Below, piece after piece: positions 1,234 through 51,759 of a DNA stretch of 64,000 bases; the stretch's first letter is position 1, and every line of letters starts with the position of its first letter. The position numbers and the translations under genes were made by a program. This DNA is from an uncultured Leptospirales bacterium. GTDB taxonomy: Bacteria > Spirochaetota > UBA4802 > UBA5550. Below the pieces are notes generated by a model, which was not told the DNA's origin, searched no databases, and saw only the letters and a program-made list of their open reading frames with translations. Location: the NCBI GenBank assembly GCA_964450405.1, contig CAYVCQ010000010.1:69610-133609 (forward strand), in the 5' to 3' direction.

Positions 1234-1332
1234 CAGTCCTGCTGCAAGGGACTTTTTATTGTACAGCTTACCGTAACTCCGCAGGATCTGCCCGGTTGTC
1301 ACTATAGCAGCTAACGCTTGAATTAGTTGTTT

Positions 1333-1492
1333 GTCATTCCGGCTGGAGCGATAGCGGAATGCCGGAATCGCACAGTTGATGCATTATAAATTAGATTCCG
1401 GTATTTGGCCAGCATTAATGTAACATCGTGTTACTTGCAGGCAGGCAAACATCCTGTTTGCTCCAAAATTGAAGCCGCAAAACCGGAATGAC
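1333..1492. mobile_element. MITE-like non-autonomous element, copy 1 (160 bp) with perfect 10-bp terminal inverted repeats GTCATTCCGG / CCGGAATGAC
   Basis: Seen directly in the sequence. The element is intergenic between skp and the L,D-transpeptidase gene. It shares its termini and internal blocks (GAATGCCGGAATC, AGATTCCGGTATTTG, AATTGAAGC-GCAAAACCGGAATGAC) with the copy at 29262-29364. It carries no ORF. Confidence 0.6.
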
Positions 1493-1597
1493 AGAAAATG
1501 GTCTAATCAATTCGTAAACTGCTGTATTTAATTCATTAAGTTCTATGGAATAAAGTTTTTTAGCACAGTTCAACGGTCTAATAATGGTAAAGGTGTT

Positions 1598-12716: not shown

Positions 12717-14066
12717 ATGAGAATCATAACATATCTTTCATCATTAGCAGTTATATTAATTTTTGGGGTAACAAGTTCTTTTGCAGCTGTTGATCAGACT
12801 TTTGTTGAAAGGATATTAAAGGAAAACAGGGAGTTTGTAGATTTTATAGATCTCAGTGTTACAAATTTCGCTCCTGCAAAGAAAAACGAACTATTTACTA
12901 TATACCAGAAACATTTTAATGCTGAAGTTGCTTTCCTTCAGGGTGATTACAAAAGAGCTTTTGACAACGTTTATGATTCACAAAAAGATATGGTGGCAAT
13001 GTATGAGTTAATACTTACTGAATACTACCTTGAGGACTCCAAAAATATACTAGATGGTTTTGCTGCTGATATAATCAGATCAAAAAATACCGCTGCTAAA
13101 CAATACCTTACACTGGGGTACCGGGACAGGACTCTCAGCAGGACATTTTATATTTCAGGAGAAGCCTCTCACCCCAGACTCTATTCTTATAAAATATTTA
13201 AATATCTCGAAGCTATAAACATGGCCAGAAGAGCAAAAAGGTATGCTTTTATTGCTTTATATACCGGCCAGAATGCAAAAGGGAAATTGAGAATTTACAA
13301 TCAGATGTTTAAAAGTGAGAACGAGAAGGGCGGTCTTTTCTTTAAAAGATTTGTAGATAAAAATGAAAAAGACTATATTATCGAGATGAACAAAACGTAT
13401 GAAGAGTCAGAAAAGGAGTTAGCACAGAAGACCCCCGCCGGGATTACTGATGTTAAGCCTGTTGAAGGAGATAAGAAAACTGAAACTCCCGATGCAGCAA
13501 ACAACGCAGCTTTTGAAAAAAAAATGGAAAGAAGTGTCAGATTCAGAAAAGAACAGAGAGTTGCTCAATACATTATGAATGAGGAATTTGATAAAGCTGA
13601 GACTATAATCAGATCGTATGTCGAAGATTATAATTTCAAGCTTATAACGGCTACGTTTTTAGCACTTGATTCAGGAGAAACTCACACAGAGGGTGAAGCT
13701 GCTGCAACGGCTAAAAAGGATTATAAAAAGTTTGTTCAGCATCATAATGATAATTATAAAATCTTTAATACTAAATCTGTACTTGATAGTGTTACAGGAG
13801 ATGTAAAGGTTATCGATTCAGTAAAAAAGGATGACAAAAAAGTTGAAGATATACAAAAAATCGAAGGCAGCAGCAGTAAAATCCCAGATGCTGAAGCGAA
13901 TAAGAAACTTGAAGAAGCTGCAAAAGATAATAAAGACATAAAAGATAATAAAGATATAAAAGATAATAAAGATATAAAAGATAATAAAGATATAAAAGAT
14001 AATAAAGATATAAAAGATATAAAAGATATAAAAGATATAAAAGATAATAAAGATTTAAATAAATGA
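12717..14066 (+). CDS. Hypothetical secreted protein with a C-terminal (D/N)KDIK tandem repeat tail
   Basis: Signal peptide, and a charged helical body. The C-terminus is encoded by 18-bp and 9-bp DNA tandem repeats giving KDNKDIK x6 followed by DIK x3. Confidence 0.5.
   Translation: MRIITYLSSLAVILIFGVTSSFAAVDQTFVERILKENREFVDFIDLSVTNFAPAKKNELFTIYQKHFNAEVAFLQGDYKRAFDNVYDSQKDMVAMYELILTEYYLEDSKNILDGFAADIIRSKNTAAKQYLTLGYRDRTLSRTFYISGEASHPRLYSYKIFKYLEAINMARRAKRYAFIALYTGQNAKGKLRIYNQMFKSENEKGGLFFKRFVDKNEKDYIIEMNKTYEESEKELAQKTPAGITDVKPVEGDKKTETPDAANNAAFEKKMERSVRFRKEQRVAQYIMNEEFDKAETIIRSYVEDYNFKLITATFLALDSGETHTEGEAAATAKKDYKKFVQHHNDNYKIFNTKSVLDSVTGDVKVIDSVKKDDKKVEDIQKIEGSSSKIPDAEANKKLEEAAKDNKDIKDNKDIKDNKDIKDNKDIKDNKDIKDIKDIKDIKDNKDLNK
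13922..14050 (+). repeat. Tandem repeat inside a CDS: about 5 units of 18 bp (GATAATAAAGATATAAAA) followed by 9-bp GATATAAAA units
   Basis: Seen directly in the sequence. It encodes the DNKDIK/DIK peptide repeat and is a candidate slipped-strand length-variable tract. Confidence 0.8.
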
Positions 14067-23271: not shown

Positions 23272-25245
23272 ATGAAAACAAAAATAAAAACATATAATAT
23301 TATTCCGGCATTGCTGATGGCGGCACTGTTTTTAACTCCGCTGCCGATTTATACGCAGAGTACAGATGAGATGAACAGACAGGCACAGGAATATTTTGAT
23401 AATAAAGAGTTTTCAAAAGCCGCTGCTCTGTGGCTGAATATCCTTGATATTGATCCGAACAATATGGAGGTTCAGAAAAAGGTTGAGTTTCTTTATGAAT
23501 CGAAGCAGAAAAAAGACCTTGAACTCGAAAAATCAAAAATGAACTACAAAATTGCCAAAAGGGAGATTGTTAAGAATTTTACTCAAGGTGTATCCTTTGA
23601 GTCTGCTGAGGAAAATCTCAATGCGTCGAGAGAGAAGGCAAAAGTAGCATTTGAGAGTTTTATTATTGCATATAGAATTGATCCCAAAGATGCAGATATG
23701 CAGTTAATCCGGGAGGATATGCAGAAGCTAGAAAAGATAATAGCCTCTGAAAATAAGAGACTTGCATTATCCAAAGAGCAGCGTGAAAAAGCAAAAGCTC
23801 TGACGATTCTTGCAAATGCTGCCATGGATGAATCCAGATACCCGGACGCTCTTGGATACTGGAAAGAGATAATCTCATTTATGCCTGAAAACATCGATGC
23901 TGTCGAGGGTAAAAGGCAGTGCGAAATTGCAATAGATAACATTATCAGATACGAAAGCATAAAGAAATTTCTGGCCAGCGGAAAGAGTTTTTTTGAGCTG
24001 AATAGTTTTAAACTTGCACGTGATGATTTTATGAATGTTCTCCAGCTTGATCCGGAGAATACTGCTGCTCAGGATTATATTGAGAAAATAGAAGAAATAT
24101 TAAACAGCAAGAAAAAATACGAGCAGAGACTCAGAGAGGCCGAAACATTTTATATATCCGGTGTAAAAAATTTAAAAGATAATAAATTTGATGAAGCAAG
24201 AGATGAACTGGAAAATACCATTACTCTGATTGCAAATTATAAGGACGCTAAAGAAAAACTTGCAAGTATTCCCAGATTGAAACTTGAATTTGAAAGAAGA
24301 GAAAAAGAAAAAAGATTAAAACAGATAAATGAAGAGTTTCAGAGCGGTCTGATAGCTCTTGCCGATTTAAAATATCAGGATGCTATTTCCGCTTTTGAAA
24401 ATACTTTAAAACTCGATCCGGGAAACAAATTGGCGCCTATTTATATACTAAGGGCGAAGGACGCACAGAAGCTTGTGGAAGAGGAGGTTGTTGATGAAAA
24501 CTCCACCTATTATGATCTGGTAAATTCTCTTGTTGTGTCGGGCCGCCGGCTTTTTGAAACGGGTAAATATGAAGAATCAAAAAAAAGATGGAATCAGATT
24601 CTCGAACTGTTTCCATCTAACAGGCTGGCTAATGAATATATTTTCAAGTGTGAATTAAGACTCAATCCGGCGGAGGGTGATGCAGTAGTAAAAAAAATTG
24701 TTATTGAGGGTGAGGATTTTCTGAAAAAAAGGGAGTACAGAAATGCCTACAGAAAATTTGAACTGGTTAAATCTATATATCCCGATTATCCGGATATACA
24801 GAATCTGCTGAAAAAAGCAGAGAGAGAACAGACCTTTACGGGAACTGCTGCATTAACCCAGGAAGAGAAGGGTGATCTGGATCGAAGATATAATCTCGGT
24901 ATGGCATATTATCAAAAGGGCGGAGATGACAATTTAAAGAAAGCATTAGTTGAACTCAAATGGGTTGCCGCGAAGGATCCTAATAATATCAAGGCGGTTG
25001 TTGCTGTTAATAAAATTGAATCACAGTCAAGGGCCGGGTCAACTACAGCGAAGAGTGAAGGTTCCAAGCTTACTCCGGAACAGGAGATTTTAGTTAGAAA
25101 GTTTTATTATAACGGAATTAATTATTATTCTAATAACGATTTCAAGAGGGCAATTGCCGAGTGGAGAAAAGTAATTGCAATTGACCCAAATCATACAAGG
25201 GCAAAAAATAATATAAGAAAATGTCTGGCGCTGCTGGGTCAGTAG
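23272..25245 (+). CDS. Secreted tetratricopeptide (TPR) repeat protein
   Basis: Signal peptide, and repeated TPR-like 34-aa helical units (A...Y......A...L...P.N). Confidence 0.65.
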   Translation: MKTKIKTYNIIPALLMAALFLTPLPIYTQSTDEMNRQAQEYFDNKEFSKAAALWLNILDIDPNNMEVQKKVEFLYESKQKKDLELEKSKMNYKIAKREIVKNFTQGVSFESAEENLNASREKAKVAFESFIIAYRIDPKDADMQLIREDMQKLEKIIASENKRLALSKEQREKAKALTILANAAMDESRYPDALGYWKEIISFMPENIDAVEGKRQCEIAIDNIIRYESIKKFLASGKSFFELNSFKLARDDFMNVLQLDPENTAAQDYIEKIEEILNSKKKYEQRLREAETFYISGVKNLKDNKFDEARDELENTITLIANYKDAKEKLASIPRLKLEFERREKEKRLKQINEEFQSGLIALADLKYQDAISAFENTLKLDPGNKLAPIYILRAKDAQKLVEEEVVDENSTYYDLVNSLVVSGRRLFETGKYEESKKRWNQILELFPSNRLANEYIFKCELRLNPAEGDAVVKKIVIEGEDFLKKREYRNAYRKFELVKSIYPDYPDIQNLLKKAEREQTFTGTAALTQEEKGDLDRRYNLGMAYYQKGGDDNLKKALVELKWVAAKDPNNIKAVVAVNKIESQSRAGSTTAKSEGSKLTPEQEILVRKFYYNGINYYSNNDFKRAIAEWRKVIAIDPNHTRAKNNIRKCLALLGQ

Positions 25246-25360
25246 GTATAAAAGGTTTTAATTATAATCTGGATGTAGTTGTTGTATAAGTTACCTGTTA
25301 ATTTAAAGTTTATATAGTTGCATATTGATTTTGTAAAAAAAATTATGAGGTTATAGTATG

Positions 25361-25533
25361 CTTCGACAGGCTCAGAATGACAAATAGAATGATAATCAGT
25401 ATGACAAATAGAATGACAAACAGCAGGACAGATAGAATGACAAGCTCAGAATAATAATCAGCATAACAGGCAGTATGACAAATAGAAAGACAAACAGAAT
25501 GAAAAATGGTTTGTCACCCTGAGCCTGTCGAAG
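25361..25533. repeat. Composite repeat: 15-bp inverted repeats (CTTCGACAGGCTCAG / CTGAGCCTGTCGAAG) bracketing about 11 tandem 12-nt units (consensus AATGACAAATAG)
   Basis: Seen directly in the sequence. It lies 53 bp upstream of the RsbU-like sensor gene. Its GAATGACA core also occurs at the MITE termini (1333-1492, 29262-29364). Confidence 0.75.
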
Positions 25534-25586
25534 GGAGACTTGTTTAACTGATTGAAAAAACACTGATTAGAAAAGGATACTATAAG

Positions 25587-27161
25587 ATGAAAGAAGATTC
25601 TTCAAAGATTAAGCATTCTGCAGATAAGCCTGCACATAAAAAAATCAGATTCGGGATAAGTCTTAAGTTTTCTCTTGCGATCATTGCCCTTGTATCTGTT
25701 ATTATATTAACCATTGCAGTATTTATTGTATACAGGGAGAGCGGTCTTTTTAAAGAACAGGTTTTTAATTTTACTAAAAGGGAGATTGTTCATCTTGGGA
25801 ATACCGCTCAGCAGACTATAGGCTATGAAGAACTAACTCTTTCAGATGCAGTAAATGAATTGAAGAAAATTGACTATTACAAATATGTTTTTGTTCTGGG
25901 GAGTAATAATGAAGTGCTATATTACTTTGACAGAAGAGGGCCGGAGGGTGATGTAAAGCATGAAGTCAGAAAACAATTCAACGATTCGATAGTAAGAAAT
26001 CTTGATAATAGAACTGATCATGACTCTATTGATATCCTTGAGAACAAAGATGCTGCATCAAAAGGGGCGATTTTCGATTTTTCTAAAGTCGTCTACAACA
26101 GAGCAGATAGTAAGAAAAAATCAGGTGTTGTAATTATAGGAATGTCGGATATAATAATCCGTAATGAAATTGCAAATATTAAGCGTCTTATAATGTTTAT
26201 TTTCCTCGGCTACATGGTTATCTCCACAATCGGAGCAGTTATCCTATCACTTATCATTATCAGACCGATTAAAAAAATATCATATGGTGCGTCGGTAATC
26301 GGGAAGGGGGATTTTTCTTATAGGATAGAAGTAAACAGTTCTGATGAATTGGGGGTGCTTGCCTCGGAATTCAATCAGATGACGGAGATGATTCAGGATT
26401 CGAAGGAAAAGGAGATTGAATCACGGATTATGAATGAACAGCTGGAGATTGCCCGGGATATTCAGGAAGGGCTTAATCCAATGGGTTATTACAATAAAAA
26501 AGGGATACAGATAAAGGGTAATACAAAAGCAGCTAAAGGGGTAGGAGGGGATTATTTCGATTACATAGATATTGATGAAAACAGAGTATGTGCACTCATT
26601 AGTGACGTATCTGGTAAAGGTGTACCGGCATCTCTGGTAATGGTTATGATTCGAACCGTTTTTACATCATATATTACAAGAAAGGATATTGACTGTGCAA
26701 GTGTTGTGAAGGCGATTAATGATTCTCTCAGTGCAGACTTCGCCATAGATAAATTTGCCACGCTGTTTTTTATGATTTATAACAGGGAAACAGAGGAACT
26801 GTCATTTTCAAATGCAGGTCATGGTCCGCTTTTCTGCTACAGAGCTGCTGAGAATGTCTGCACCAGAACATCACTTGACGGGGTTCCAATTGGTATTATG
26901 GATGAAGTGGATTATAAACAGGCTAAGGTTAAGCTGCATCCGGGAGATATGGTTGTTCTTTATACTGATGGTATTACGGAAATGAGGAATAGTTCCAAAG
27001 AGGAATACGGATTGGGGAGAGTCCATAAGTTGATGATGGAAAATCACCATTTAAGTGCCGAGGATTTTCTTGCGCTTCTTATTAGTGAAGTGGAAGTATT
27101 CCGTGGGGAAACTCCTCCTCATGATGATACTACGGCAATGGTATTTAAACGTGATAAATAA
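25587..27161 (+). CDS. Membrane sensor with HAMP and a PP2C-type Ser/Thr phosphatase domain (RsbU/SpoIIE family)
   Basis: Two TM helices flank a periplasmic domain. HAMP-like linker. C-terminal SpoIIE signature (GVGGDYFDYI ... LISDVSGKGVPASLVMV ... LYTDGITE ... HDDTTAMVFK). Confidence 0.8.
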   Translation: MKEDSSKIKHSADKPAHKKIRFGISLKFSLAIIALVSVIILTIAVFIVYRESGLFKEQVFNFTKREIVHLGNTAQQTIGYEELTLSDAVNELKKIDYYKYVFVLGSNNEVLYYFDRRGPEGDVKHEVRKQFNDSIVRNLDNRTDHDSIDILENKDAASKGAIFDFSKVVYNRADSKKKSGVVIIGMSDIIIRNEIANIKRLIMFIFLGYMVISTIGAVILSLIIIRPIKKISYGASVIGKGDFSYRIEVNSSDELGVLASEFNQMTEMIQDSKEKEIESRIMNEQLEIARDIQEGLNPMGYYNKKGIQIKGNTKAAKGVGGDYFDYIDIDENRVCALISDVSGKGVPASLVMVMIRTVFTSYITRKDIDCASVVKAINDSLSADFAIDKFATLFFMIYNRETEELSFSNAGHGPLFCYRAAENVCTRTSLDGVPIGIMDEVDYKQAKVKLHPGDMVVLYTDGITEMRNSSKEEYGLGRVHKLMMENHHLSAEDFLALLISEVEVFRGETPPHDDTTAMVFKRDK

Positions 27162-27814: not shown

Positions 27815-29182
27815 TTATTTAATGTCAATAAATAATTTATCGATAAATCCGGAAAGATCAAGGAAATTATTAACTTCTTTCATTTCTTTACAGTAGTGTC
27901 CATAAATTGAAGCAATGCTGTCATTCCAGTCCCAGAGATGTTTTTTATCGGGATTAAGCCAGAAAACATTTTTTGTTTTATCATGAATTTTCTGAAATGA
28001 ATTGAGACCCGGATCGTTGTCATTATTTCTTGCATCTCCCAGTATAAGAACGGAAGTTTTTTTTGTCAATGAATCACTGTGATTTTCGACAAACTGATCG
28101 AAACATCTTCCGTAATTGCTTCCCCATCCGTAGGTAAAATTAGCATCAGTAAACATCGAATTTATTGCTCTTTCCGGATCCATTTCTCTGAACAGATCGG
28201 TTATTTCCACCATATTACTTATAAACGCAAAGGTTCTAACCTTGGAAAAAAGACTCTGAAGGCTATATGTAAGGAGAAGCATAAAACGTGAATACTGGTT
28301 AACTGATCTTGAAACGTCCACCATTACAACCAGCTGCGGGCGGTCTATTTTCTTAGTTTTAAAAAAAAGTTTAAATGGGACTCCGCCATATTGTAAATTT
28401 GTACGGAAAGTACGCTTAATATCTATTCCGCCATGTTTAACCCTTTTTTTTCTCAGAGAGATTCTGTTTTTCAGTTTCTGTCCGAATCTTTTAATTATCT
28501 CTCTCATCTCCTTTACTTCCTGAGGAGACAACTGGTAGATAAACTTATTCAGAAGAAAATCCTCTCTGTTCTTAAGTGTCTTACCAATATTTCTTTTTGA
28601 AACTTTCAGCTTTACAAGACTTTTAATAAGTGCAAGAAGATCCTCATTGCTTCTCTGGTCAGGCTCTCCATCTTCACTCTCTGAGTAATATGATCCTGCA
28701 GCTCCACCTTTAGACCGGAAGATTCCCATTCCCTCTCCTCCGCCTGAAGCATCTGATTCGGGAAGGTCATCGAGAAACATCTGCATAATTTCATCTGCGG
28801 ATTTCTCTAACAATATTGCCGGATCGAGCGACTCGATAAATTTATCAAGCTGAGAGTCTATTTCATTTATCAGATTACCGGGAACTTTATCGGCAAACTT
28901 CTGGAGGTCATCGCTGTCCATTCCGTCGAGGAACCTCTCGCGTCTGCTGAAGTATTCTTCGAAGCATCTGTCAAATACAGGAATGTCGGTGTAATCTTTA
29001 ACAAGTGTAGTTTTGAGAGTCTGTCTGAATATGACTTTGTCTTGAAGATCTATCTCTGTTATGGCCTTAAACACAGCAATAACTTCATCTGCAGAAATTG
29101 TAACATTCGCATCTCTTAAAATTTCTATAAATTCAAAGAGTTTGTCAGATATATAACTATGATTAATCATTTCGTTTGTCAT
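27815..29182 (-). CDS. VWA-domain protein of the CoxE/MoxR-partner type
   Basis: 455 aa. C-terminal von Willebrand A fold with a MIDAS-like DVSRS motif (VVMVDVSRSV). The N-terminal helical region is typical of CoxE-like partners of MoxR ATPases. It lies downstream of the MoxR gene on the same strand. Confidence 0.65.
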   Translation of the reverse strand: MTNEMINHSYISDKLFEFIEILRDANVTISADEVIAVFKAITEIDLQDKVIFRQTLKTTLVKDYTDIPVFDRCFEEYFSRRERFLDGMDSDDLQKFADKVPGNLINEIDSQLDKFIESLDPAILLEKSADEIMQMFLDDLPESDASGGGEGMGIFRSKGGAAGSYYSESEDGEPDQRSNEDLLALIKSLVKLKVSKRNIGKTLKNREDFLLNKFIYQLSPQEVKEMREIIKRFGQKLKNRISLRKKRVKHGGIDIKRTFRTNLQYGGVPFKLFFKTKKIDRPQLVVMVDVSRSVNQYSRFMLLLTYSLQSLFSKVRTFAFISNMVEITDLFREMDPERAINSMFTDANFTYGWGSNYGRCFDQFVENHSDSLTKKTSVLILGDARNNDNDPGLNSFQKIHDKTKNVFWLNPDKKHLWDWNDSIASIYGHYCKEMKEVNNFLDLSGFIDKLFIDIK

Positions 29183-29261
29183 TGTATTTTCAGTAGTAAT
29201 CCCTAAACTTTTTTATAATAGAAAAATCTCTATTCGGCACTGATTCATAAGTATAATCATT

Positions 29262-29364
29262 GTCATTCCGGCTGCAGTGAAACGAAATGCCGGAATCTCA
29301 TACTACAGATTCAATCAGGAGATTCCGGTATTTGCAAGAATTGAAGCAGCAAAACCGGAATGAC
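29262..29364. mobile_element. MITE-like element, copy 2 (103 bp), same GTCATTCCGG / CCGGAATGAC termini as copy 1
   Basis: Seen directly in the sequence in the 239-bp spacer between the MoxR and VWA genes. It is co-linear with copy 1 but lacks a ~55-bp internal segment. Confidence 0.6.
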
Positions 29365-29421
29365 AAATGTTTAAAATGCAAACTTTTAGACAACTCCTGT
29401 AAAATCTTTTATGAATTCAAA

Positions 29422-30330
29422 TCAGTTAAGGAACAGCTCTTTGGACTGGGATACTGCAAGCTGTATATCCTTCTCATACTTTAGAATAAAGTTCAGTGTC
29501 TCCATCGCTATGGCCGGATCGAGATCCTGGTACCCGAGTATAACAAGCGCTTTTGCCCAGTCGAGAGTTTCGCTTATGCTCGGTTCTTTTTTCAGCTGGA
29601 GTTTTCTAATTCTCTGAACAGTTTCAACAATCTGTCTTATCATTTTAGGTCCGCTTTCAGGTACTTTTAATGATACAATTTTTTCCTCAAGCTCGATTGT
29701 GGGGTAATCTATATAGAGATGAAGACATCTTCTCTTCAATGCATCGGACATTTCTCTCTGGCTGTTTGATGTGAGGAATACAAAGGGTTTTACATCAGTC
29801 TTAAAAGTTCCAAGTTCAGGAATTGTTACCTGGAAATCAGAGAGAACTTCAAGTAGAAACGCCTCGAATTCGGAATCAGATTTATCTATTTCATCGATAA
29901 GAAGTACAGATCTTCTGTTGTTGGTTATCGATTTTAAAATCGGCCGTGGAATAAGAAAGTTTTCCGAGAAGAATACATCCTCGGTTGATGTAAGTTTGGC
30001 AATGGCACCCTTAAGAGTCTGTTCCGAGCCCATGATCTCCGACAGTTTATCTTTTAATATCTGAGTGTAAAGGAGCTGTTTGGCATACTCCCACTCATAA
30101 AGGGCTTTTGATTCATCCAGTCCTTCATAACACTGCATTCTGATTAAATCGATGTTAAGGGCAGAGGCGATGCATTTGGCAAGTTCTGTTTTTCCAACAC
30201 CGGCCGGTCCTTCTACCAGTACCGGTCTCTCCAGCTTCATTGCGAGATATACGGTAGTGGCGATCTCTTTGGAGGCGATATATTGTACTTTTTCAAGTTC
30301 TTTAATTGTTTCATCTACACTTTTAAACAT
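29422..30330 (-). CDS. MoxR-family AAA+ ATPase (CoxD-like)
   Basis: Walker A (LVEGPAGVGKTELAK), Walker B (LLIDEIDKSD), an AAA_5-type architecture, about 300 aa. Confidence 0.8.
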   Translation of the reverse strand: MFKSVDETIKELEKVQYIASKEIATTVYLAMKLERPVLVEGPAGVGKTELAKCIASALNIDLIRMQCYEGLDESKALYEWEYAKQLLYTQILKDKLSEIMGSEQTLKGAIAKLTSTEDVFFSENFLIPRPILKSITNNRRSVLLIDEIDKSDSEFEAFLLEVLSDFQVTIPELGTFKTDVKPFVFLTSNSQREMSDALKRRCLHLYIDYPTIELEEKIVSLKVPESGPKMIRQIVETVQRIRKLQLKKEPSISETLDWAKALVILGYQDLDPAIAMETLNFILKYEKDIQLAVSQSKELFLN

Positions 30331-30466
30331 AACCGCACCATCATTTTTTAATTTAACTCAACATTGTATTGGTTAGTTTTTTTTTCAAGAAATAAATCGG
30401 AAAGGGTGGGTAAAACCAGGTTTTATGGGAGGGGGATGTTAATAGGCGGCCGGAATCATTTTTACT

Positions 30467-30507
30467 GAATTTCGTTATATGCTAATGATGAGCATATAAC
30501 GAAATTC
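30467..30507. promoter_or_regulatory. 17-bp perfect-stem hairpin/palindrome (GAATTTCGTTATATGCT-AATGATG-AGCATATAACGAAATTC)
   Basis: Seen in the sequence about 140 nt upstream of the MoxR start (minus strand) and 90 nt upstream of the plus-strand lipoprotein gene. No flanking U-tract, so it is more likely an operator or structured RNA than a terminator. Confidence 0.4.
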
Positions 30508-30599
30508 AATAAAAAGTATATATTTAGAAAAAACTTTGTCAATTTTCCTGTTGTATTTCAACTACTTAAAAAAGCGTAATTATTTAAAAAGGGGTTTTA

Positions 30600-45485: not shown

Positions 45486-45503
45486 TGCCCCCTCCGGGGG
45501 GCA
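45486..45503. terminator. GC hairpin (TGCCCCC-TCCG-GGGGGCA) between convergent genes
   Basis: Seen in the intergenic region shared by the 3' ends of the TolC-like (+) and ACAD-like (-) genes. A second CCCGGT/ACCGGG hairpin lies about 90 bp upstream. Confidence 0.4.
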
Positions 45504-45578
45504 GGGGGATATAGGAATGTCAATTATCCAAACATTCCGGAAGGAGCTGTAAAATGTTAATAAATAGAAATTAGAAAC

Positions 45579-48004: not shown

Positions 48005-48027
48005 CCTTGCCCCCTCCGGGGGCAAGG
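48005..48027 (-). terminator. GC hairpin (CCTTGCCCCC-TCC-GGGGGCAAGG) downstream of argG
   Basis: 10-bp perfect stem seen 66 nt after the argG stop on the minus strand. No strong U-tract. Confidence 0.4.
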
Positions 48028-51570: not shown

Positions 51571-51720
51571 TAAATCAACACAGATGTATTTATAAAGTAT
51601 TGATTTTATCGGGATTTTGCTGTCAATTATTAAAATAAAAACGGTGGAAATTTACCGGTATCTACTTATAAATCCCCCCGTTTCACTCCGTTCAACATTC
51701 CCCTTTGGTTAAAGGGGGTT

Positions 51721-51759
51721 AAAAAATCCAACAGGTAAAACCCCCTTTAACAAAGGGGG
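51721..51759 (-). terminator. Intrinsic terminator for rsmI (CCCCCTTT-GTTA-AAGGGGG followed by a T-tract on the minus strand)
   Basis: Hairpin plus U-run on the coding strand about 110 nt after the rsmI stop. A second similar hairpin CCCCTTTGGTTAAAGGGG lies at 51700-51717. Confidence 0.5.

What the first reader, a model, noticed from the sequence alone, without database searches (positions are those of the whole stretch)
25361..25533. Inverted-repeat-bracketed array of ~11 tandem 12-nt units (AATGACAAATAG) immediately upstream of the RsbU-like sensor phosphatase gene
A 173-bp structure: 15-bp perfect inverted repeats (CTTCGACAGGCTCAG ... CTGAGCCTGTCGAAG) enclose roughly eleven degenerate 12-nt direct repeats that each end in AG. 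It is not CRISPR-like (no spacers) and not coding for a long product. The repeat core GAATGACA is the same sequence that forms the termini of the MITE-like elements elsewhere in the window, which suggests a shared binding protein or a shared origin. It ends 53 bp before the start of a membrane sensor-phosphatase gene. It could be a multi-site operator for a repeat-binding regulator, a phase-variable promoter spacer (unit-number changes), or a decayed mobile element.
Basis: seen in the sequence. Interest (0 to 1): 0.6.

Follow-up and report, generated by a model that had tools for sequence, protein, structure and literature searches.

The report
Palindromic repeat pair with internal minisatellite
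The structure is real, but it is extra DNA found only in this lineage: two inverted copies of a small hairpin repeat that occurs in many bacterial phyla, with the 12 bases next to one copy repeated eleven times, sitting between two genes that are almost touching in most relatives; it is not a conserved regulatory array.

Summary
There are 24-nt inverted arms (22/24 complementary, 15 nt perfect) at 25361-25384 and 25510-25533. They enclose eleven degenerate units, ten of 12 nt and one of 14 nt.

Each arm is one copy of a short hairpin repeat: a TGTC tag, a 5-bp covarying stem and an 11-nt loop, GAGCYTGTCGA. This repeat occurs in at least ten phyla and in viral contigs. It has no Rfam family, and I found no paper that gives its sequence.

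The two copies face each other head to head. The 12-nt unit (minus strand CTATTTGTCATT) is the tag plus stem start of the left copy, reiterated. About 8% of family members elsewhere carry similar reiterations of half a unit.

The block is specific to this lineage. In four relatives (82-87% identical phosphatase) the TPR gene and the HAMP-SpoIIE gene are 22-25 nt apart. Two other relatives have different fillers of 88 and 190 nt. Here the gap is 341 nt. Four assemblies of this organism are identical across it.

Best reading: a REP/BIME-like mobile-repeat dimer whose spacer grew by replication slippage. Any regulatory effect is probably incidental and at the RNA level. The operator and phase-variation ideas are not supported.

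The parts
23272..25245 (+). Upstream gene: 657-aa TPR-repeat protein. In most relatives it is the immediate operon partner of the phosphatase gene.
   Evidence: ORF list; Pfam TPR families; same gene order in L004-L008 and L065-L067.
25246..25561 (.). About 316 nt of extra DNA specific to this lineage, between the TPR stop codon and the native 25-nt spacer. The boundaries are approximate. A possible imperfect 9-nt direct repeat, TATAAAAGG (25247-25255) / TAGAAAAGG (25567-25575), flanks it.
   Evidence: The spacer is 22-25 nt in L004, L005/L006, L007/L008 and L067, against 341 nt here. The 25-nt spacer of L067 aligns to the last 25 nt of the window's spacer. No second copy in the window and no plasmid match.
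25353..25384 (-). Left hairpin-repeat unit, read on the minus strand: TGTC tag (25379-25382), stem ATTCT/AGCAT (4 of 5 pairs), loop GAGCCTGTCGA (25363-25373).
   Evidence: Covariance model R1, built only from units of other organisms, scores it 33.9 bits, E=2e-6. Sequence.
25376..25509 (+). Array of 11 tandem units (10 x 12 nt, 1 x 14 nt), consensus AATGACAAATAG (minus strand CTATTTGTCATT). This is the reiterated tag plus stem start of the left unit. The first unit is part of the left hairpin itself.
   Evidence: TRF; unit parsing and shuffle test; direct repeats.
25439..25512 (+). Second copy of a 74-nt higher-order repeat; the first copy is 25365-25438 (76% identity). It begins with GACAAGCTCAG, a second partial copy of the loop/stem piece GACAGGCTCAG.
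   Evidence: the repeat finder family D1; blastn self-hits.
25510..25541 (+). Right hairpin-repeat unit: TGTC tag (25512-25515), stem ACCCT/AGGGA (4 of 5 pairs, extended by GTC:GAC), loop GAGCCTGTCGA (25521-25531). It faces the left unit head to head.
   Evidence: Covariance model R1 scores it 39.2 bits, E=8e-8; stem check.
25547..25576 (+). 15-nt tandem duplication, ACTGATTGAAAAAAC / ACTGATTAGAAAAGG. The second copy is the start of the native spacer.
   Evidence: Sequence; alignment with the L067 spacer.
25562..25586 (+). Native spacer with the ribosome-binding region (AAAAGGATACTATAAG) of the phosphatase gene, conserved in all relatives.
   Evidence: Alignments A2 and A3 and pairwise alignments.
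25363..25390 (+). Sigma-70-like promoter match, TCGACA-16 nt-TAGAAT (10 of 12), formed by the left unit's loop and the first array unit, pointing at the phosphatase gene. It is a consensus match only.
   Evidence: Promoter scan. The same scan found 10 promoter-like sites in this 900-nt AT-rich stretch against 3.8 expected.
25587..27161 (+). Downstream gene: 524-aa HAMP + SpoIIE (PP2C) phosphatase.
   Evidence: ORF list; Pfam; homologues named SpoIIE/RsbU family phosphatases in Spirochaetota.

Best explanation
The structure is a head-to-head pair of small palindromic repeat units of the REP/BIME kind. Each unit has a conserved TGTC tag, a 5-bp stem of variable sequence and an invariant 11-nt loop, GAGCYTGTCGA.

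The pair arrived, as part of about 316 nt of extra DNA, between the stop codon of a TPR gene and the ribosome-binding site of a HAMP-SpoIIE phosphatase gene. Most relatives have only 22-25 nt there.

The spacer between the two units then grew. The 12 nt next to the left unit's loop (CAG + AAT stem + GACA tag + AAA) was duplicated in tandem several times. A 74-nt block made of five such units plus a piece of the loop was later duplicated. The copies have since diverged.

What is shown: the anatomy, membership of both arms in the family, absence of the block from orthologous sites, recurrence of the same kind of half-unit array in other family members, and the lack of length variation.

What is inferred: the block arrived by transposition through an unidentified enzyme acting in trans. 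The array arose by replication slippage or template switching at the hairpin. The array has no dedicated function. Its likely effect is incidental: the two genes are now joined by a transcript that can fold into a 24-bp stem, which could be processed or could alter translation of the phosphatase gene.
For: 1. Both arms are family members. A covariance model built from 110 units of other organisms scores them 39.2 and 33.9 bits; nothing else in the window reaches E<1.

2. The family is real and forms a hairpin. Stem pairs 8:26, 9:25 and 10:24 change on both sides in 49, 71 and 35 of 110 sequences. The helix is 87.6% paired, 0 of 500 shuffles reach the covariation score, and sliding the partner collapses it. 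Independent counts agree.

3. The family is dispersed. There are 29 stretches in viral contigs.

4. Units lie mostly between genes, more often between convergent genes (25) than divergent ones (10), with no strong strand bias. No neighbouring protein recurs within 1.5 kb.

5. Head-to-head partners occur in 16 of 259 units. Reiteration of half a unit on the tag side occurs in 20 of 259, and arrays of 3 or more copies in 7 of 259, with periods of 15-22 nt. L082, from a Treponemataceae genome, has the same AAT-type unit, one TAGAATGACA reiteration and an inverted CC-type unit, also between two co-directional genes.

6. The orthologous junction is 22-25 nt in four relatives. It is 88 nt and 190 nt, with unrelated filler, in two others.

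7. A second operon junction nearby (AAA/VWA) is also split by about 235 nt that contains a different TGTC-tagged element.

8. The array is degenerate and identical in four assemblies.
Against: No second copy of the 316-nt block or of the array was found in the window or in the collections scanned, so mobility of this composite as a unit is not shown.

Only two family units occur in 64 kb, and none in about 67 kb of relatives' syntenic DNA. Classical REPs are far more numerous.

The roughly 105 nt to the left of the pair and 28 nt to its right are unexplained.

The flanking direct repeat is imperfect and short. L065 shares short stretches with both edges of the window's spacer, so part of the spacer may be older than the repeat pair.

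No transposase was identified. No expression data exist, so a regulatory role acquired later cannot be excluded.
Confidence: 0.66

Rival explanations
1. The element has been co-opted as an RNA-level regulator. In the read-through TPR-phosphatase transcript the two arms pair into a 24-bp stem. A further 9-bp outer stem (25351-25359 with 25577-25585) covers the stretch between the Shine-Dalgarno sequence and the AUG. The structure would then uncouple the two genes, either through cleavage by a double-strand-specific RNase or by blocking translation. This is compatible with a mobile-repeat origin.
For: The minimum-free-energy fold of 25340-25590 pairs the arms and the outer 9-mers. It gives -48.4 kcal/mol (z = -3.0) on the plus strand and z = -4.6 on the minus strand. 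The inverted repeat I3 was also found independently. No intrinsic terminator is predicted, so read-through is plausible. Correia elements of Neisseria, by precedent, bind or are cut by RNase III and can create promoters (PMC2649163).
Against: It rests only on folding of a single sequence. The structure is absent from all relatives, so there is no comparative support. The outer 9-mer match could be chance in AT-rich DNA. There are no transcript data.
Confidence: 0.2
2. The twelve-mers are a multi-site operator (iteron-like array) for a DNA-binding regulator of the phosphatase gene. The regulator might recognise TGACA/TGTCA and might also bind the termini of the other elements in the window.
For: TGACA-containing units recur with a regular 12-nt phase, just over one helical turn. 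The same GAATGACAA motif sits at the termini of the elements at 1330-1493 and 29260-29367. The array lies 77 nt upstream of a signalling gene.
Against: It is not conserved at the orthologous promoter or junction in any of six relatives. Only about half the units keep TGACA. The motif is the tag of a dispersed repeat family found in many phyla, and similar arrays occur next to unrelated genes. No candidate binding protein is encoded next to family members.
Confidence: 0.08
3. The array is a phase-variable spacer. Gain and loss of 12-nt units changes promoter geometry or transcript structure and switches phosphatase expression.
For: It is a tandem array close to a gene start. In pneumococcal BOX elements, longer boxB arrays vary more in length between strains (PMC3049150).
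Against: Units are only 58-100% identical to the consensus, adjacent-unit identity is 0.64, and one unit is 14 nt. Such imperfect tracts slip poorly. Three further assemblies from separate sequencing runs are identical to the window over all 371 aligned columns.
Confidence: 0.03
4. The region encodes a small hydrophobic protein on the minus strand (25396-25563, 55 aa, GTG start), or a 9-codon upstream ORF on the plus strand (ATG at 25358, MLRQAQNDK).
For: The ORFs exist. GAGG lies 7 nt upstream of the plus-strand ATG.
Against: The minus-strand product is simply the translation of the repeat (LRQAQGDK... followed by reiterated LFVIL-type segments). The DNA is absent from all relatives. Period 12 is a multiple of three, so any frame that happens to lack a stop in the unit stays open along the array.
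Confidence: 0.02

Closest known systems
REP / BIME / REPIN elements, especially the CGTC(TGTC)-tagged palindromic repeats of Di Nocera et al. 2013 (PMC3733652) and the REPIN doublets of Bertels and Rainey 2011 (PMC3116915)
   Same: It is a short extragenic palindrome with a conserved terminal tetranucleotide that is not part of the stem; the paper notes that the CGTC tag is often TGTC. The stem starts with A. Head-to-head dimers occur. Units are under-represented between divergent genes. No transposase gene lies next to the units, as reported for the CGTC class. That class was also reported in Bacteroidetes and Spirochaetes.
   Different: The stem is only 5 bp and its sequence varies, while the loop is 11 nt and almost invariant. 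The CGTC-1 to CGTC-4 families have 8-9-bp stems and 4-5-nt loops. The same loop sequence is shared across at least ten phyla, whereas REP families are usually confined to a genus or species. Copy number in this window is very low. The spacer of the dimer is filled with a tandem array.
BOX elements of Streptococcus pneumoniae (boxA-boxB(n)-boxC; Croucher et al. 2011, PMC3049150)
   Same: Terminal modules that pair with each other enclose a variable number of tandem internal modules. The element is intergenic, mobile-element-like and able to fold as RNA.
   Different: BoxB is a 45-nt module distinct from the termini. Here the 12-nt module is a reiterated piece of one terminus. I did not test sequence similarity. 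BOX arrays vary between strains, and no variation was seen here.
Correia repeat-enclosed elements of Neisseria (PMC2649163)
   Same: A 26-bp inverted repeat encloses a short core. These elements insert between genes, can create promoters at their ends and form RNA hairpins that RNase III binds or cuts. This is the functional analogy used for the RNA-level rival explanation.
   Different: The sequence is unrelated. Correia elements have a defined TA target duplication and hundreds of near-identical copies per genome, and no internal tandem array.
Phase-variable tandem-repeat (contingency) loci
   Same: A tandem array close to a gene start.
   Different: Contingency repeats are short and nearly perfect and vary in number between cells. 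This array is degenerate and invariant in the four assemblies available.

Membership tests
REP/BIME-type tagged palindromic repeats (GTAG/CGTC superfamilies) | Short imperfect palindrome able to form a stem-loop, with stem complementarity maintained | tested here: met
   The 5-bp helix is 87.6% paired across 110 units, with 35-71 double-sided changes at three pairs; 0 of 500 shuffles reach the score. The window's units pair at 4 of 5 positions each.
REP/BIME-type tagged palindromic repeats (GTAG/CGTC superfamilies) | Conserved terminal tetranucleotide tag (GTAG, or CGTC/TGTC) not involved in pairing | tested here: met
   In A5, G, T and C of the tag (columns 4-6) are at least 90% conserved and the first T (column 3) at least 70%. 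The opposite tail pairs with the tag in only 49.5% of cells. Both window units carry TGTC.
REP/BIME-type tagged palindromic repeats (GTAG/CGTC superfamilies) | Dimensions of the described CGTC-1 to CGTC-4 families: 8-9-bp stem, 4-5-nt loop, CCA-like tail (PMC3733652) | tested here: not met
   The stem is 5 bp, the loop is an invariant 11 nt (GAGCYTGTCGA), and the tail is variable, often GAC. It is therefore not a member of those four families.
REP/BIME-type tagged palindromic repeats (GTAG/CGTC superfamilies) | Tens to thousands of copies per genome | tested here: inconclusive
   Two units in this 64-kb window and none in about 67 kb of relatives' syntenic loci. Several units per contig occur in some other genomes. 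The rest of the source genome could not be scanned.
REP/BIME-type tagged palindromic repeats (GTAG/CGTC superfamilies) | Mostly extragenic; frequent head-to-head dimers | tested here: met
   Flanking-ORF analysis. Sixteen of 259 units have an inverted partner on the head side and 24 of 259 on the tail side. The window pair is head to head.
REPIN-RAYT system | A cognate RAYT (Y1/HUH transposase) gene flanked by the repeats | tested here: inconclusive
   No protein family recurs within 1.5 kb of units across about 270 loci. That would miss a single-copy gene elsewhere in the genome. No whole-genome search was possible.
MITE | Terminal inverted repeats, target-site duplication, and multiple near-identical copies derived from an IS | tested here: inconclusive
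   The inverted repeats are present. A possible imperfect 9-nt direct repeat flanks the larger 316-nt block, not the inverted repeats themselves. There is no second copy in the window, plasmids or scanned collections. No parent IS is known.
BOX-type modular repeats | Complementary end modules enclosing a tandem array whose copy number varies between strains | tested here: inconclusive
   The architecture matches. Copy number is identical in four assemblies that probably come from one study. Sequence relatedness to boxA/B/C was not tested.
Phase-variable contingency repeat | Near-perfect short repeats with length polymorphism | tested here: not met
   Identity at lag 12 is 0.64, units match the consensus at 7-12 of 12 positions, and one unit is 14 nt. 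There is no polymorphism.
Operator or iteron array | Conserved position relative to the regulated gene in related genomes; a cognate binding protein | tested here: not met
   It is absent from the junction in all six related lineages examined. The binding protein cannot be tested with these tools.
CRISPR array | Repeats separated by unique spacers of similar length | tested here: not met
   The units abut head to tail with no spacers.
Any curated RNA family (Rfam 15) | Match at gathering score | tested here: not met
   No hit in the window. Only chance-level snoRNA hits appear at E>1 in 25200-25700. Sixteen loci rich in family units gave only a tRNA.

The most novel reading that the evidence does not exclude
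The TGTC-tagged hairpin with the invariant GAGCYTGTCGA loop may be an undescribed mobile palindromic family that crosses phyla. It was found in at least ten bacterial phyla and in viral contigs, has no Rfam family, and its sequence appears in no searchable paper. Its loop would then be the recognition site of a conserved enzyme acting in trans. The recurrent arrays of tag-proximal half-units, of which this 11-copy array has the most copies among those seen, would be footprints of that enzyme's nick-and-copy mechanism, not of ordinary slippage.
Probability: 0.15. Interest if true: 0.7.

Novelty: new variant of a known kind. Interest (0 to 1): 0.33.

Why it matters
For this locus the result is mainly a caution. 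An eye-catching array upstream of a signalling gene turns out to be repeat-element debris specific to one lineage, and should not be annotated as an operator or a switch.

Two points have wider interest. First, the hairpin family keeps an almost invariant 11-nt loop while its stem covaries, and it does so across many phyla. That is unusual for REP-like repeats, which are normally lineage-specific, and it points to a conserved recognition partner that has not been identified. Second, this genome shows small palindromic elements inserted inside tight operon junctions (TPR/SpoIIE and AAA/VWA). Relatives carry other fillers at the TPR/SpoIIE junction. This makes a natural test case for how such insertions uncouple co-transcribed genes.

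Tried and rejected
- Rfam, over the whole window at gathering score, locally at E up to 10, and over 16 family-rich loci: nothing relevant.
- Literature search for the core and loop as text strings, DNA and RNA, both strands: only chance primer matches. A keyword search for Bacteroidetes palindromic repeats found nothing.
- Search for a 12-mer doublet (ATGACAAAYAGNATGAYAA) in viral contigs: 27 stretches, all isolated chance matches, none inside an array.
- Search for the AAT-type unit in metagenomes: at least 120 stretches, none with an array of 12-nt period.
- blastn of the 320-nt block against the window and against plasmids: no second copy.
- Search for a recurrent neighbouring gene, such as a transposase, within 1.5 kb of units: none.
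- CRISPR, terminator and protein-coding readings were rejected.
- Clean terminal inverted repeats for the 316-nt block: none found.
- The alignment of the window's spacer with the 88-nt and 190-nt spacers of L065 and L066 is too weak to decide whether their edges are homologous.

Full report

Yes. The sequence at 25361-25533 reads CTTCGACAGGCTCAG, then eleven short units, then TTTGTCACC and CTGAGCCTGTCGAAG. The inverted repeat is 24 nt long (25361-25384 and 25510-25533) and 92% complementary. The perfect 15-mer occurs in the 64-kb window only at these two sites. Five matches with up to 3 mismatches were found against 0.82 expected, and 0 of 100 shuffles reached that number.

Tandem Repeats Finder reports period 12, 11.0 copies and 67% matches at 25374-25507. 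My own parsing gives ten 12-nt units and one 14-nt unit from 25376 to 25509, with consensus AATGACAAATAG; ten of the eleven end in AG. Self-identity at lag 12 is 0.64, a value that no shuffle out of 5000 reached at any lag. There is also a higher-order repeat: 25365-25438 and 25439-25512 are 76% identical. The second copy begins GACAAGCTCAG, a second partial copy of the arm.

The structure lies in the 341-nt gap between a TPR-protein gene (23272-25245) and a HAMP + SpoIIE phosphatase gene (25587-27161).

**2. What the arms are**

Scanning public collections for CTTCGACAGGCTCAGNNTGACA returned 29 stretches in viral contigs. Hits came from many Bacteroidota, including cultured Pedobacter, Flavobacterium, Chryseobacterium and Mucilaginibacter. 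They also came from Vulcanimicrobiota/Eremiobacterota, Ignavibacteria, Calditrichaceae, Treponemataceae, Nitrospinaceae, Nitrospirota, Verrucomicrobiota, Thermomicrobiales, Clostridia and Alphaproteobacteria.

In 167 such units the two nucleotides on each side of the 15-mer are complementary in 94% and 89% of cases, against 35-37% expected, and all four pair types occur. A second set of 160 units was found in the same loci by their loop alone and was not used as bait. It gives the full picture:
- a conserved 5' TGTC;
- a stem A-x-x-x-T paired with A-x-x-x-T;
- an 11-nt loop, GAGCTTGTCGA or GAGCCTGTCGA.

On an alignment of 110 of these units (A5), the 5-bp helix is 87.6% paired. Three of its pairs change on both sides in 49, 71 and 35 sequences. 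No shuffle out of 500 reaches the covariation score, and sliding the partner by 1-3 columns collapses it. The TGTC tag is conserved but pairs with the opposite tail in only 49.5% of cells, so it is a tag and not part of the stem.

A covariance model built from these 110 foreign units scores the window's right arm at 39.2 bits (E = 8e-8, 25510-25541, plus strand). It scores the left arm at 33.9 bits (E = 2e-6, 25353-25384, minus strand). Nothing else in the window reaches E<1.

The '15-bp perfect inverted repeat' is therefore the loop, plus two closing pairs, of two copies of one repeat family. The copies are placed head to head, with their tags facing inward.

**3. What the 12-mers are**

On the minus strand the unit reads CTATTTGTCATT: the TGTC tag plus ATT, the start of the left unit's stem. 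The first array unit is part of the left hairpin itself. The array is thus the tag-proximal end of the left unit reiterated, and the 74-nt higher-order repeat shows that a block of five units plus a piece of the loop was later duplicated.

This is not unique to this locus. Among 259 non-redundant family members, 20 carry at least one extra copy of their own AGxxTGACA 9-mer within 60 nt on the tag side, against 8 on the other side. Seven carry arrays of three or more copies built from the tag-side half, with periods of 15-22 nt. Some are perfect, such as L150, L162 and L140. Three members carry arrays of the other half, (CCTTCGACAG)n.

The closest analogue is L082 from a Treponemataceae genome: CTTCGACAGGCTCAGAATGACA, one TAGAATGACA reiteration, then an inverted TGTCACCCTGAGCGAGGTCGAAGGG. 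It also lies between two co-directional genes. The window's array has the most copies (11) and the shortest period (12) of those seen. Its head-to-head spacer of 125 nt exceeds the 8-92 nt found elsewhere. No 12-nt array was found elsewhere.

**4. Is it a conserved part of the phosphatase locus?**

No. The organism belongs to Spirochaetota, judging from the source names of homologues. The phosphatase has orthologues at 82-87% identity in the same gene order: BNR-like or radical-SAM gene, TPR, SpoIIE, then STAS, VWA and AAA on the opposite strand.

The TPR stop and the SpoIIE start are 22-25 nt apart in L004, L005/L006, L007/L008 and L067. They are 88 nt apart in L065 and 190 nt apart in L066. 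The filler there is different; in L066 it includes an AATTCCGG...CCGGAATT hairpin.

The 25-nt spacer of L067 aligns to the last 25 nt of the window's spacer. The extra roughly 316 nt therefore sits directly after the stop codon and leaves the ribosome-binding region intact. An imperfect 9-nt direct repeat (TATAAAAGG / TAGAAAAGG) flanks it, and a 15-nt tandem duplication of the native spacer lies at its right edge.

The covariance model finds no unit in about 67 kb of these relatives' loci. Three further assemblies of the same organism, from separate sequencing runs, are identical to the window over all 371 aligned columns. No copy-number variation is visible, but the samples probably come from one study.

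**5. Context in the same genome**

Two other small elements, at 1330-1493 and 29260-29367, have termini TTGTCATTCCGG...CCGGAATGACAA. Their end units are TGTC + ATTCCGGC + loop + GCCGGAAT. That is the same tag and ATT stem start, but a longer stem closer to the described CGTC/TGTC-tagged REPs (PMC3733652).

The second of these elements sits in 239 nt between the AAA and VWA genes. Those genes are 1 nt apart in L004 and L005 and 24 nt apart in L065. This genome has therefore accumulated small palindromic elements inside at least two operon junctions.

**6. How it most likely works**

The anatomy, family membership, absence from orthologous sites and recurrence of half-unit arrays are shown. The rest is inferred.

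I infer that a pair of units arrived by a trans-acting mechanism that remains unidentified, either alone or within the 316-nt block. No protein recurs next to units, as reported for CGTC-tagged REPs (PMC3733652). I also infer that the spacer then expanded by slippage or template switching at the hairpin and has since decayed.

Distribution relative to flanking ORFs shows no strong strand bias: 29 against 19 between co-directional genes. Units are depleted between divergent genes (10) compared with convergent genes (25). This fits a DNA-level dispersed repeat better than an RNA gene.

The consequence for the locus is probably incidental. The scan predicts no terminator, so the two genes are likely still co-transcribed. 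Such a transcript can fold into the 24-bp stem, extended by a 9-bp outer stem that reaches the start region of the phosphatase gene. The left unit plus the first array unit also make a TCGACA-16-TAGAAT promoter-like site. By analogy with Correia elements (PMC2649163), either feature could modulate expression, but nothing here tests that.

**7. Comparison with known systems**

The element works like a REP/BIME/REPIN dimer, and in architecture it resembles a pneumococcal BOX element, which has paired end modules around a tandem array (PMC3049150).

It shares with the CGTC/TGTC-tagged REP superfamily the unpaired tag, a stem starting with A, head-to-head dimers, an extragenic location and the lack of an adjacent transposase. 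It fails the dimensions of the four described CGTC families (5-bp stem and 11-nt invariant loop, against 8-9 bp and 4-5 nt). Its loop is conserved across phyla, which is not typical of REPs.

It has no Rfam family, and text searches for its sequence found no paper. Sequences printed only in figures could not be searched, so I cannot state that it is undescribed.

**8. Verdict**

The interpretation as a decayed mobile element is supported. The operator and phase-variation ideas are not. The finding itself is ordinary repeat-element biology with an unusual internal array. The wider family is the more interesting lead.

Noticed in passing
window 29183-29421 (element at 29260-29367): A second operon junction is split. 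The AAA (29422-30330, minus strand) and VWA (27815-29182, minus strand) genes are 239 nt apart here but 1-24 nt apart in relatives. The extra DNA holds a 108-nt element with termini TTGTCATTCCGG...CCGGAATGACAA, made of two TGTC-tagged ATTCCGG(C) hairpins.
   Followed up: partly
window 1330-1493: Another element of the same TGTCATTCCGG...CCGGAATGACA type lies in the 364-nt gap between two co-directional ORFs (760-1233 and 1598-2266).
   Followed up: partly
L066 2881-3070 and L065 2914-3001: The same TPR/SpoIIE junction is expanded independently in two relatives. L066 has 190 nt with an AATTCCGGATTACCGGAATT hairpin and a CACCTGTGGATATATCCGCAGGTG hairpin. L065 has 88 nt. This junction seems to be a recurrent landing site for small palindromic DNA.
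   Followed up: partly
L032, L070, L105, L140, L150, L162, L148, L184 (head side); L148, L172, L184 (tail side): Other members of the hairpin family carry tandem arrays of half-units, with periods of 11-22 nt. Some are perfect, which suggests recent expansion. Why half-units are reiterated is unexplained.
   Followed up: partly
L223, L282, L305, L110, L227 (flanks of the bait units): Other TGTC/CGTC-tagged hairpins with the same layout but different loops lie next to GAGCYTGTCGA-loop units. Examples are TGTCATTCTGAACGGAGTGAAGAATC and CGTCATTACGAGGAGGAACGACGAAGTAATC. This hints at a superfamily of tag + AT-stem + GA...GA loop repeats.
   Followed up: no
window 13922-14059: This is the best tandem repeat in the window (period 9/18, 95% matches). 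It is coding: it encodes a C-terminal (KDNKDI)n tail of a 449-aa protein whose N-terminus is hydrophobic and looks like a signal peptide (12717-14066).
   Followed up: partly
window 25358-25387 (+) and 25396-25563 (-): Two ORFs are created by the repeat. One is a 9-codon ORF, MLRQAQNDK, with GAGG 7 nt upstream of its ATG. The other is a 55-aa hydrophobic ORF on the minus strand that starts with the translated unit (…SLRQAQGDK…). Both are probably artefacts of the repeat. Such ORFs could be mis-annotated as hypothetical proteins.
   Followed up: partly
window 30459-30515: A near-perfect 28-nt palindrome (93% complementary, 1 nt between the arms): TTTTTACTGAATTTCGTTATATGCTAAT / ATGAGCATATAACGAAATTCAATAAAAA.
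   Followed up: no
window 45486-45505, 48008-48027 and 51700-51759: GC-rich hairpins: TGCCCCCTCCGGGGGGCAGG occurs twice (90% alike), and there is a 21-nt inverted repeat CCCCTTTGGTTAAAGGGGGTT / AACCCCCTTTAACAAAGGGGG. They may be terminators or another small repeat family.
   Followed up: no
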